Shown: positions 53,236 through 53,548, counted from the first letter of the stretch. The stretch is DNA of 64,000 nt from Escherichia coli (GCF_003334815.1 NZ_QOWO01000001.1), one strand, 5' to 3'. Numbers and translations: made by a program. Notes: generated from the letters alone by a model not told the origin.

Positions 53236-53548
53236 ATGACACCTAATGTCACCATGACGGCGTTATGTTGGAAAGGTGTCATTAGGTGTCATAGCGGGAA
53301 ACACGCTGATTATTAAAGAAAAATACAAACAAGATAATGTAATGAATGACACCTGTGACACCATGACACCCATTTCTATAAAGTATAACGACCACTGTTA
53401 CATTATCACAGTGGTCGTTATTTTCTTTAAAAATGCTGTCATAGGTGTCATAGGTGTCATTAGTAATGTCGCAACCCTTGCGGGTTATGGCTTGAGAACA
53501 ATGACACCTGCCATGACACCTTATAAATTAATGACACCTAGGCGTCAC
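53236..53548. repeat. Iteron-type replication origin: ATGACACC/GGTGTCAT array
   Basis: Exact ATGACACC at 53236, 53346, 53363, 53501, 53513, 53531. Exact GGTGTCAT at 53275, 53285, 53444, 53453. Variants at 53246, 53355, 53435, 53541. The clusters flank a central inverted repeat and an AT-rich tract. Confidence 0.75.
53385..53421. repeat. Perfect 14-bp inverted repeat at the centre of the iteron array
   Basis: ATAACGACCACTGT tacattatc ACAGTGGTCGTTAT, followed by the AT-rich tract TTTCTTTAAAAAT. Confidence 0.85.

What the first reader, a model, noticed from the sequence alone, without database searches (positions are those of the whole stretch)
53236..53548. Dense iteron array (14 copies of an ATGACACC 8-mer) around a perfect 14-bp palindrome: probable element origin of replication
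Within 313 bp there are 6 exact ATGACACC, 4 exact GGTGTCAT (its complement) and 4 one- or two-mismatch variants. They form four clusters of alternating orientation. At the centre is ATAACGACCACTGT-N9-ACAGTGGTCGTTAT, next to an AT-rich tract. The array lies immediately downstream of the primase/VapE operon terminator. Iterons flanking an AT-rich region beside the pri-rep gene is the origin organisation described for SaPIs/PICIs. The two ORF-track ORFs here (53018-53242 and 53276-53605) are probably artefacts of the repeats.
Basis: partly seen in the sequence, partly recalled or inferred. Interest (0 to 1): 0.6.

Follow-up and report, generated by a model that had tools for sequence, protein, structure and literature searches.

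The report
Replication origin of a phage satellite
The repeat array is real and is very probably the replication origin of a 9.3-kb phage-satellite island in E. coli, an ordinary kind of origin sitting in an apparently undescribed satellite family.

Summary
Window 53236-53548 holds 10 exact ATGACACC/GGTGTCAT, 3 one-mismatch copies and 2-3 weaker ones. There is also a perfect 14-bp palindrome and a 75-82% AT tract, just past the terminator of the VapE operon.

The origin reading is supported by four lines of evidence:
- The 7-bp core TGACACC stays invariant while spacers diverge in Pantoea, metagenome and plasmid relatives.
- In 24 of 47 distant VapE loci the densest 7-mer cluster lies right after the VapE gene, with a different word in most loci.
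- Iteron identity follows the VapE C-terminal winged-helix region, not the ATPase core or the N-terminus.
- Three roughly 9-kb circular plasmids carry the same architecture with a VapE-domain protein as their only recognisable replication gene. Two nearly identical ones differ only in the VapE gene and the iterons.

The closest solved structure is the SaPI Rep initiator-helicase (7PDS).

- The island protein has no primase domain.
- There are five clusters, not four.
- The core is 7 bp.
- A Jilinvirus-type cos site lies directly beside the array.

As an origin this is a new member of a known kind. The satellite itself encodes a tape-measure protein and occurs in integrated and plasmid forms, which is the more novel part.

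The parts
53236..53548 (.). Iteron array, the probable origin of replication: 13 copies of aTGACACCt at one mismatch or less, plus 2-3 degenerate copies, in five clusters of alternating orientation.
   Evidence: conserved blocks in relatives
53236..53261 (+). Cluster A: ATGACACC (53236), ATGTCACC (53246), and a degenerate ATGACGGC (53254).
53275..53292 (-). Cluster B: two exact copies (53275, 53285). It forms a 21-nt, 90% complementary inverted pair with cluster A.
   Evidence: I3
53296..53345 (.). AT-rich tract (75-82% AT in 40-bp windows), the candidate DNA-unwinding element. It contains TTAAAGAAAA at 53313-53322.
53346..53370 (+). Cluster C: ATGACACC, GTGACACC, ATGACACC, spaced 9 and 8 bp apart.
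53385..53421 (.). Perfect 14-bp palindrome with a 9-nt spacer. It is kept, with a single difference in the spacer, in the three other E. coli copies I aligned, and is not conserved in Pantoea, metagenome or plasmid relatives. Its role is unknown.
   Evidence: (I2)
53421..53430 (-). Second TTAAAGAAAA motif. There are only two in the 64-kb window, both inside the array. This copy is invariant next to the triple iteron cluster in the Pantoea and metagenome relatives.
53435..53460 (-). Cluster D: ATGACAGC, ATGACACC, ATGACACC at 9-bp spacing. It is the inverted partner of cluster C.
   Evidence: (I1, I5)
53501..53548 (+). Cluster E: three exact copies (53501, 53513, 53531), plus a degenerate minus-strand copy at 53541 that aligns with a true iteron in relatives.
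53566..53583 (-). Intrinsic terminator that ends the alpA-to-VapE-to-74-aa operon.
53608..53832 (-). 74-aa ORF between the VapE gene and the origin, with no family match. A homologue is present in Pantoea and the plasmids but absent in K. michiganensis. It stays 95% conserved across a plasmid pair whose VapE gene and iterons were both swapped, so it is not the iteron partner.
53842..55530 (-). 562-aa VapE-domain protein, the proposed initiator-helicase. Residues 159-553 are 65% identical to the C-terminal two-thirds of Jilinvirus primase-helicases. The N-terminal 158 aa replace the PriCT_2 and Toprim domains.
53896..54108 (-). C-terminal region of the VapE protein (about residues 475-545), predicted winged helix (H-E-H-H-E-E). 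This is the proposed iteron-recognition domain.
   Evidence: covariation
53148..53228 (.). cos site of Jilinvirus type, ending eight bases before the first iteron. It is 93-99% identical to non-coding DNA just upstream of terS in phage ECO1230-10 and to deposited genome ends of phages ECOO78 and Arya.
48335..48351 (+). Left att core AATACGGCATGAACTAA (the last codons of fis).
57681..57697 (+). Right att core, an identical 17-bp direct repeat. The two cores bound an island of about 9.3 kb.

Best explanation
The array is the vegetative replication origin of a 9.3-kb integrated phage satellite that lies between fis and yhdJ.

Proposed mechanism:
1. After induction and excision, the island's 562-aa VapE-family protein acts as a self-loading initiator-helicase of the SaPI Rep type.
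2. Its C-terminal winged-helix domain binds the TGACACC(T) iterons.
3. Oppositely oriented iteron clusters place hexamers on both sides of the AT-rich tract (53296-53345) and of the central region, which melts.
4. The helicase then encircles DNA and unwinds it.
5. Because this protein lacks the Toprim/PriCT primase part found in its phage and plasmid relatives, priming must come from the host (DnaG) or from the helper phage.
6. The concatemers are then cut at the adjacent cos site by the helper (Jilinvirus-type) terminase.

What is shown and what is inferred. Shown by sequence analysis: the anatomy, the conservation, the covariation with the C-terminal domain, the homology to SaPI Rep, and the presence of the same module on natural plasmids. 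Inferred: binding, melting, helicase loading, the source of primers, and helper dependence.
For: 1. Enrichment. Ten exact copies lie in 303 bp, against 5 in the other 63.7 kb and 1.8 expected for the whole window.

2. Anatomy. The array matches published SaPI and E. coli PICI origins: iterons downstream of rep, an AT-rich centre, and at least two iterons on each side pointing in opposite directions (PMC9371898; PMC6092414).

3. Footprint. In the E. coli, Pantoea and metagenome alignment the TGACACC blocks and TTAAAGAAAA are invariant while the spacers diverge.

4. Recurrence. In 24 of 47 distant VapE loci, mostly from other Proteobacteria, the densest 7-mer cluster of the whole locus (6-11 copies per 350 bp) starts 69 bp before to 283 bp after the end of the VapE match. 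Most loci use a different word, in mixed orientation. Only one locus has such a cluster elsewhere.

5. Covariation.
- The K. michiganensis island protein shares the N-terminus and core with the window protein, but has a diverged C-terminus and TGGACCCT iterons.
- Among pairs with at least 55% core identity, all 5 pairs with at least 53% C-terminal identity share the iteron. All but one of the pairs with C-terminal identity of 42% or less differ by at least 2 of 7 bases. These include pairs with 80-83% core identity.
- IMG/VR relatives with only about 50% core identity keep a similar predicted recognition helix and the same TGACACC iterons, which start right after the stop codon.

6. Natural replicons.
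- Plasmids pSCU-121-2 (E. coli, 9138 bp) and pR17.0904_9.3k (Salmonella, 9316 bp) carry 11 TGACACC iterons in the same layout. A Toprim-VapE protein is their only recognisable replication gene, and they have no integrase.
- pM121-3 is 93-98% identical to pSCU-121-2 everywhere except the VapE ORF and the iteron array (GGGGAAC, 12 copies). The small ORF between those two segments is 95% identical.

Against: - There is no experimental evidence for this element.
- A crude global correlation between iteron similarity and domain identity across all pairs is not significant.
- Percent identity of the C-terminal domain does not predict the iteron on its own. IMG/VR relatives at 44-46% identity keep the iteron. 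The helper-type phage primase is about 50-60% identical in this domain, yet the only iteron-like array in phage ECO1230-10 uses TGGGAC[CT]A, which matches the island core at 5 of 7 positions.
- The island protein lacks a primase domain, so truly autonomous replication is not assured.
- The palindrome is not conserved in relatives.
- Strain EC2641 keeps the array without any VapE gene, presumably through decay.
- The three roughly 9-kb circles are deposited as plasmids, but they could be excised or induced satellite DNA rather than stably maintained plasmids.
Confidence: 0.85

Rival explanations
1. The repeats are packaging signals. On this reading they are terminase small-subunit binding sites, a cosB- or cosQ-like accessory region belonging to the adjacent cos site, and not an origin.
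For: The array ends eight bases from the cos-homologous segment at 53148-53228. Lambda-type cos sites do have repeated terminase-binding elements (established knowledge).
Against: The similarity to Jilinvirus phages stops exactly at the edge of the array, and phage ECO1230-10 has no TGACACC cluster anywhere. In that phage terS lies on the other side of cos. pM121-3 and pSCU-121-2 share cos and the late genes at 93-98% identity, yet have unrelated iterons that changed together with the VapE gene. Distant VapE loci in unrelated contexts also carry arrays directly after the VapE gene.
Confidence: 0.04
2. The repeats are operator sites for a transcription regulator, such as AlpA or one of the small ORF products, that controls the late operon promoter or the rep operon. 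On this reading they are not an origin.
For: The array lies between two co-directional operons, upstream of the promoter region of the 322-aa gene. Weak sigma-70-like matches occur inside it.
Against: The plasmid relatives lack alpA and the 93-aa ORF but keep TGACACC iterons. The K. michiganensis island lacks the 74-aa ORF but has an array. The small ORF between VapE and the iterons stays 95% identical when the iterons are swapped. Iteron identity follows the VapE C-terminal domain across unrelated gene contexts. Promoter-like matches number 5, against 3.0 +/- 2.1 in shuffles, which is not an excess.
Confidence: 0.05
3. The array works mainly as a decoy or as a copy-control and incompatibility element. 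It would titrate the helper phage's primase-helicase, whose C-terminal domain resembles the island's, or it would handcuff island copies. This could hold in addition to, or instead of, firing as an origin.
For: In the C-terminal domain the Jilinvirus primases are about 50-60% identical to the island protein, and their predicted recognition helix is nearly identical (KSQATNCSNVLRKLTG in phage Arya against KSQATQCGNILRKLTG in the island). The iteron-like word of phage ECO1230-10, TGGGACC, matches TGACACC at 5 of 7 positions. Handcuffing by iterons is established for iteron plasmids (established knowledge).
Against: No data show cross-binding. The phage array differs at the two central bases. The plasmid relatives need an origin, and this array is the only candidate. 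This rival is compatible with the main explanation rather than exclusive of it.
Confidence: 0.05
4. The array belongs to a dispersed genomic repeat family, or the clustering is due to chance or low-complexity sequence.
For: None beyond the presence of short repeats.
Against: 0 of 100 shuffles reach the observed count. The 651-bp region occurs once per genome, in 49 of 5426 complete E. coli genomes, and in the five copies whose context I looked at it lies in this island or its remnant between fis and yhdJ. No Rfam family reaches its threshold; the only hits are sub-threshold matches to generic hairpin (miRNA) models.
Confidence: 0.01

Closest known systems
SaPI replication module (Rep or PriRep initiator-helicase plus ori; Staphylococcus aureus pathogenicity islands; structure 7PDS)
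   Same: The origin lies downstream of the helicase gene. Short iterons sit on both sides of an AT-rich centre in opposing orientation. The initiator is a VapE-type hexameric helicase with a C-terminal winged-helix domain that reads the iterons. 7PDS is the only PDB sequence match (E = 2e-16) and the best structural match.
   Different: Sequence identity is only about 20%. The iterons are 7-9 bp rather than 5-6 bp, and there are 13-15 of them rather than 6-12. A small ORF and a terminator lie between the gene and the origin. This island has neither a fused nor a separate primase.
Gram-negative PICI origins (for example EcCICFT073 pri-rep-ori; Fillol-Salom et al. 2018, PMC6092414)
   Same: The gene order is int, alpA, rep, ori on one strand. 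Two iteron sets flank an AT-rich region. The element carries a helper-type cos site, is about 9-15 kb long and has its own att site.
   Different: The att site (the 3' end of fis) and the word fis do not appear in the main text of that paper. The helper type is a Jilinvirus myophage rather than a lambdoid phage. The island encodes a tape-measure protein. Integrase-less relatives are deposited as plasmids, whereas that paper states that PICIs have no plasmid state.
Satellite phage P4: alpha protein with ori and crr (type I iterons)
   Same: From my own recall: the iterons are octamers (TGTTCACC) in direct and inverted orientation, read by a C-terminal winged-helix domain of a primase-helicase. 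P4 is a cos-packaged satellite that can be integrated or a plasmid. Some distant VapE loci here use CGTTCACC.
   Different: No P4 alpha chain was returned by the PDB sequence search. There is one array rather than two separated sites (ori and crr). The island protein has no primase domain. No P4 genes were looked for or seen. The helper is not P2-like.
Iteron plasmids (RepA, Pi or TrfA type)
   Same: Repeated initiator-binding sites lie next to an AT-rich unwinding region, and relatives occur as plasmids.
   Different: In those plasmids the iterons are 17-22 bp direct repeats bound by a winged-helix Rep without helicase activity, and DnaA boxes and host DnaB loading are needed (established knowledge). 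Here the repeats are 7-9 bp in mixed orientation, there is no DnaA box or IHF consensus, and the initiator is itself a helicase.

Membership tests
SaPI/PICI-type Rep-ori replication module | Iteron array located downstream of the rep (helicase) gene. | tested here: met
   The array starts 294 bp after the VapE stop codon, separated from it by a 74-aa ORF and a terminator. In relatives without that ORF the array starts 0-90 bp after the stop.
SaPI/PICI-type Rep-ori replication module | Iterons on both sides of an AT-rich region, with at least two on each side pointing in opposite directions. | tested here: met
   Clusters B(-) and C(+) flank the 75-82% AT tract at 53296-53345. Clusters C(+) and D(-) flank the 62-70% AT central region. 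The criterion is taken from PMC9371898.
SaPI/PICI-type Rep-ori replication module | The initiator is a VapE/Rep-type hexameric helicase homologous to SaPI Rep. | tested here: met
   Pfam VapE-like domain, E = 4.5e-48. PDB 7PDS, E = 2e-16. Foldseek to 7PDS, E = 8e-16, TM-score 0.56 normalised to the target.
SaPI/PICI-type Rep-ori replication module | A C-terminal winged-helix domain recognises the cognate iterons. | tested here: inconclusive
SaPI/PICI-type Rep-ori replication module | The rep-ori segment drives autonomous replication. | not testable with these tools
   There is a proxy only. Three circular records of about 9 kb, deposited as plasmids, carry the same module and no other recognisable replication gene.
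SaPI/PICI-type Rep-ori replication module | A primase is encoded, either fused to Rep (PriRep) or as a separate pri gene upstream. | tested here: not met
   No Toprim, PriCT or prim-pol domain is found in the 562-aa protein, even at E <= 1. The neighbouring 93-aa and 74-aa ORFs have no family match. The phage and plasmid relatives do have Toprim.
Gram-negative PICI (element level) | int, alpA and rep on one strand, a size of about 9-15 kb, a specific att site with direct repeats, and a helper-type packaging site. | tested here: met
   All of int, alpA and VapE are on the minus strand. 17-bp att repeats lie at 48335 and 57681. The cos site matches Jilinvirus phages.
Gram-negative PICI (element level) | Induction, excision, replication and packaging depend on a helper phage. 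| not testable with these tools
   Inferred only, from the shared cos site, tape-measure gene and helicase homology with Jilinvirus phages.
P4-like satellites | An alpha-type primase-helicase, with type I iterons at two separate sites (ori and crr). | tested here: not met
   There is no primase domain. There is a single array; the only other exact 8-mer in the island is one copy inside the VapE gene at 54286. No P4 alpha chain was returned by the PDB sequence search.
Iteron plasmids (RepA/Pi type) | 17-22 bp direct iterons, DnaA boxes, and a Rep without helicase activity. | tested here: not met
   The repeats are 7-9 bp in mixed orientation. There is no DnaA-box or IHF consensus in 53101-53650. 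The initiator carries a helicase/ATPase domain.

The most novel reading that the evidence does not exclude
The origin belongs to a phage-satellite family that appears undescribed in the literature I could search. These are elements of about 9 kb that parasitise Jilinvirus myophages. They carry the helper's cos site, their own copy of the helper-type tail tape-measure protein (59% identical), and a helper-derived helicase whose primase part is either replaced (integrated form, at the 3' end of fis) or kept (integrase-less plasmid form). The rep gene and its iterons are exchanged as a matched pair, independently of the DNA between them. The island iteron (TGACACC) differs from the phage's putative iteron (TGGGACC) only at the two central bases. 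This may have made satellite and helper replication orthogonal through a few changes in the recognition helix.
Probability: 0.45. Interest if true: 0.6.

Novelty: new member of a known kind. Interest (0 to 1): 0.38.

Why it matters
As an origin, this finding extends the SaPI/PICI rule: a self-loading VapE-type helicase reads short iterons placed just after its own gene. The rule now covers an enterobacterial island and, through the survey of distant loci, many Proteobacteria. The survey also suggests a simple way to predict origins next to VapE genes.

The matched swap of rep gene and iterons between two otherwise identical plasmids, together with the different rep-iteron pairings seen in other relatives, gives a ready-made set of initiator-site pairs. 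These could be used to study the recognition code of the winged-helix domain.

The surrounding element may be the more valuable part. It looks like a satellite of Jilinvirus phages that encodes a tape-measure protein and exists in both integrated and plasmid forms. That would broaden the known range of phage satellites.

Tried and rejected
- Rfam scan of 52800-53900: only sub-threshold matches to plant miRNA hairpin models, which reflect the dyad symmetry. No RNA family fits.
- DnaA box, IHF consensus and GATC clustering in 53101-53650: none found.
- Palindrome as a conserved origin element: rejected. The corresponding positions in the Pantoea, metagenome and K. michiganensis relatives fold no better than shuffled sequence (z -1.9, -0.25 and -0.6). 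The E. coli copies are too similar to be informative.
- Global Spearman correlation of a crude iteron-similarity score with domain identity over all locus pairs: not significant. I replaced it with a contiguous-core comparison restricted to pairs with at least 55% core identity.
- Same iterons in the helper phage: phage ECO1230-10 has one exact 8-mer and no TGACACC cluster. It does have a separate TGGGAC[CT]A array about 2 kb downstream of its primase gene.
- Pfam and PHROGs on the 322-, 149-, 106-, 93- and 74-aa ORFs: no significant matches.
- Literature searches for Jilinvirus satellites or satellites with a tape-measure gene: nothing relevant. One of these searches was badly framed and uninformative.
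- P4 literature search: returned only indirect mentions. The statements about P4 iterons therefore rest on my own recall.

Full report
**Setting**

The window is E. coli chromosome: accC, yhdT, panF, prmA, dusB, fis, then an inserted island, then yhdJ, acrS, acrEF. The island is bounded by an exact 17-bp direct repeat, AATACGGCATGAACTAA, at 48335-48351 and 57681-57697. This repeat is the last codons of fis.

All island genes lie on the minus strand:
- integrase, 56278-57585
- AlpA, 55804-55983
- a 93-aa ORF
- a 562-aa VapE-domain protein, 53842-55530
- a 74-aa ORF, 53608-53832
- several ORFs without family matches, including a 322-aa one at 51957-52925
- a tail tape-measure protein, 48429-50702

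The full island is present in 47 of 5426 complete E. coli genomes. The 651 bp around the finding occur once per genome, in 49 genomes.

The exact 8-mer occurs 15 times in the window, against 1.82 expected, and no shuffle reaches 15. There are three more copies with one mismatch (53246, 53355, 53435) and two-mismatch candidates at 53254, 53259 and 53541. No other 313-bp stretch of the window has more than four copies at one mismatch or less.

The copies form five clusters of alternating orientation:
- A(+) 53236-53261
- B(-) 53275-53292
- C(+) 53346-53370
- D(-) 53435-53460
- E(+) 53501-53548

A and B form one inverted pair, and C and D form another. Between B and C lies the most AT-rich stretch, 75-82% AT at 53300-53349. 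Between C and D lies the perfect palindrome, 53385-53398 / 53408-53421. As single-stranded DNA it folds at -14.4 kcal/mol, z = -7.6. A minus-strand intrinsic terminator at 53566-53583 closes the VapE operon. Comparison with relatives shows that the conserved core is the 7-mer TGACACC, usually followed by T or TA.

Window 53148-53228 is 93-99% identical to non-coding DNA of Jilinvirus myophages (ECO1230-10, ep3, PT1, HeidiAbel Bas97). It also matches the deposited genome ends of phages ECOO78 and Arya. In ECO1230-10 the match sits just upstream of the small terminase gene. The left end of ECOO78 corresponds to window 53170. The similarity stops at the edge of the iteron array, and ECO1230-10 has no TGACACC cluster.

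The island's tape-measure protein is 59% identical over its full length to that of the phage. The VapE protein is 61-65% identical to the C-terminal two-thirds of the phage primase-helicase. The island is therefore best read as a satellite of Jilinvirus-type phages, with ori and cos side by side.

**The protein is a helicase-initiator, not a primase**

Pfam finds only the VapE-like domain, residues 252-470. The phage relatives carry PriCT_2 and Toprim domains in front of it. In the island protein these are replaced by an unrelated 158-aa N-terminus, and no primase domain appears even at E <= 1.

The only PDB sequence match is 7PDS, a SaPI Rep initiator-helicase bound to dsDNA (E = 2e-16). It is also the best Foldseek match of the AlphaFold model (E = 8e-16). 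According to PMC9371898:
- SaPI Reps are self-loading helicases.
- Their C-terminal winged-helix domain recognises 5-6-bp iterons.
- Six to twelve iterons lie immediately downstream of rep, around an AT-rich centre.
- At least two iterons on each side point in opposite directions.

PMC6092414 describes the same layout for E. coli PICIs and showed replication for the EcCICFT073 rep-ori segment.

**Comparative evidence that the array is the cognate site of this protein**

*(a) Related islands at the same fis site.* Islands in Pantoea stewartii and Klebsiella michiganensis, metagenome contigs of about 9-10 kb, and the window all share the same order: VapE, sometimes a small ORF, terminator, iteron array, cos, late operon. 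In an alignment of E. coli, Pantoea and a metagenome relative, the TGACACC blocks and a TTAAAGAAAA motif are invariant while the spacers diverge.

*(b) The K. michiganensis island.* Its protein is 62% identical overall. Its N-terminal 150 residues are far better conserved with the window protein than its last 80 or so residues, which have diverged. Its array uses TGGACCCT instead. A 692-aa metagenome protein with a different N-terminus but a similar C-terminus keeps CTGACACC.

*(c) Distant loci.* A scan of one genome per species returned 51 distant VapE loci. In 24 of the 47 analysed, the densest 7-mer cluster of the whole locus (6-11 copies in 350 bp) begins between 69 bp before and 283 bp after the end of the VapE match. 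Most use a different word, in mixed orientation. Only one locus has such a cluster elsewhere, and the rest peak at 3-5 copies.

*(d) Pairwise comparison.* I restricted this to pairs with at least 55% identity in the ATPase core.
- All five pairs with at least 53% identity in the C-terminal region share the iteron core, with 0-1 mismatch in 7.
- All but one of the pairs at 42% or less differ by two or more bases.
- The differing pairs include some with 80-83% core identity.
- Klebsiella and the alphaproteobacterium Celeribacter share both the TGGACCC core and the C-terminal motif.

*(e) IMG/VR contigs.* These carry VapE proteins only about 50% identical in the core, but with a similar predicted recognition helix (KADVTHCGYILRKM against KSQATQCGNILRKL). 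They have nine to ten TGACACC iterons that start at the stop codon.

**Natural replicons**

Three complete circular records of about 9 kb carry the same late operon, tape-measure gene and cos site but no integrase. In all three a VapE-domain protein is the only recognisable replication gene, and the two held in PLSDB are typed as non-mobilizable.
- pSCU-121-2 (E. coli) and pR17.0904_9.3k (Salmonella) have 11 TGACACC iterons in the same cluster order. Their Toprim-VapE protein has a C-terminus close to the window's.
- pM121-3 (E. coli) is 93-98% identical to pSCU-121-2 everywhere except two separate segments: the VapE ORF and the iteron array, which here has 12 copies of GGGGAAC. The small ORF and terminator between these segments remain 95% identical.

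This matched, non-contiguous swap is hard to explain unless the protein and the repeats work together. It also excludes the small ORF, cos and the late genes as the partner of the repeats.

**Rivals**

- *Terminase-binding role.* This is unlikely. The phages that share the cos site lack the repeats, and the repeats change with VapE while cos stays the same.
- *Operator role for AlpA or a small ORF.* This is unlikely. Elements that lack those genes keep the arrays.
- *Dispersed repeat family.* This is excluded.
- *Decoy or copy-control role.* This cannot be excluded and would be compatible with origin function. The phage primase's predicted recognition helix is nearly identical to the island's. 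The phage's own iteron-like array, TGGGAC[CT]A at L004 28500-28780, matches the island core at 5 of 7 positions.

**Caveats**

- Nothing here shows binding, melting or replication.
- The winged-helix assignment is supported by topology and neighbours, not by strong scores.
- Percent identity alone does not predict the iteron.
- The palindrome is conserved only among the E. coli copies and is not a family feature, so its role is open.
- The lack of a primase domain means priming must be supplied by the host or the helper.
- The circular records of about 9 kb might be excised satellite DNA rather than stable plasmids.

**The overlapping ORFs**

ORFs 53276-53605 (+) and 53018-53242 (-) have no significant Pfam match. 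No gene was called at the equivalent place in the relatives. The plus-strand frame is not kept in Pantoea. The minus-strand ORF overlaps the cos site. They are probably artefacts, although PGAP annotates the 109-aa ORF as a hypothetical protein.

**Verdict**

The array is very probably the island's replication origin, read by the C-terminal domain of the VapE helicase, as in SaPIs and PICIs. It is a new member of a known kind. The more unusual points concern the element. It is a Jilinvirus-type satellite with its own tape-measure gene, it has integrated and plasmid forms, and its rep-iteron pair is exchanged as a matched set. I found no description of this in the searchable literature.

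Noticed in passing
window 53148-53228: A cos site of Jilinvirus type lies eight bases from the iteron array. It is 93-99% identical to non-coding DNA upstream of terS in phage ECO1230-10 and to the deposited ends of phages ECOO78 and Arya. The left end of ECOO78 maps to window 53170 and the end of Arya to about 53186. This hints at a cohesive end of roughly 17 nt in between.
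   Followed up: partly
window 48335-57697 (whole island): The island looks like a phage satellite of Jilinvirus myophages. It encodes its own tail tape-measure protein (48429-50702), which is 59% identical over its full length to the phage's. I found no paper describing satellites of Jilinvirus or satellites that carry a tape-measure gene.
   Followed up: partly
L064 (NZ_CP083588.1, pM121-3), L065 (CP054330.1, pSCU-121-2), L066 (NZ_CP100673.1): Integrase-less relatives of the island are deposited as complete circular plasmids of 8.9-9.3 kb in E. coli and Salmonella. pM121-3 and pSCU-121-2 are 93-98% identical except for the VapE ORF and the iteron array, which were exchanged together around a conserved small ORF. 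The Salmonella plasmid additionally carries an AbiEi-type antitoxin-domain gene in its late region.
   Followed up: partly
L001 5669-7151 (E. coli EC2641, NZ_JALDNN010000001.1): This strain keeps only a remnant of about 2 kb between fis and yhdJ: a truncated late gene, cos and the iteron array. There is no VapE gene or integrase, so the island has decayed here.
   Followed up: partly
window 53313-53322 (+) and 53421-53430 (-); L004 28556-28570: TTAAAGAAAA occurs only twice in the 64-kb window, both times inside the array and in inverted orientation. It is invariant beside the triple iteron cluster in the Pantoea and metagenome relatives. It also occurs in the iteron-like region of phage ECO1230-10. 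Possible roles are part of the unwinding element or a host-factor site.
   Followed up: partly
L004 28500-28780 (phage ECO1230-10, between Orf36 and Orf37): The phage has its own array of TGGGACTA/TGGGACCA repeats in both orientations, with AT-rich stretches, about 2 kb downstream of its primase gene. This is a candidate phage origin. Its core matches the island's at 5 of 7 positions.
   Followed up: partly
window 55135-55530 (VapE residues 1-132): The N-terminal roughly 120-130 residues of the island VapE protein are 65-73% identical to translated DNA on large Klebsiella and Salmonella plasmids. The genes under those matches are annotated as DUF5906, as hypothetical, or as RepA-family helicase together with DUF4222. 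This is a shuffled module of unknown function that replaces the primase part. It also matches phrog_2850 (unknown function).
   Followed up: no
window 51957-52925, 51640-51960, 50940-51389: The late-operon ORFs between cos and the tape-measure gene (322, 106 and 149 aa, plus smaller ones) have no significant Pfam match and no PHROGs match (the 106-aa ORF has only a sub-threshold P22_Cro hit). They are conserved across the integrated and plasmid forms. They are candidates for helper-interference or capsid/tail-remodelling functions.
   Followed up: no
L010, L012 (Pseudomonas), iterons after the VapE gene: Some distant VapE loci use CGTTCACC iterons. From my own recall, this is almost the type I iteron of satellite phage P4 (TGTTCACC).
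   Followed up: no
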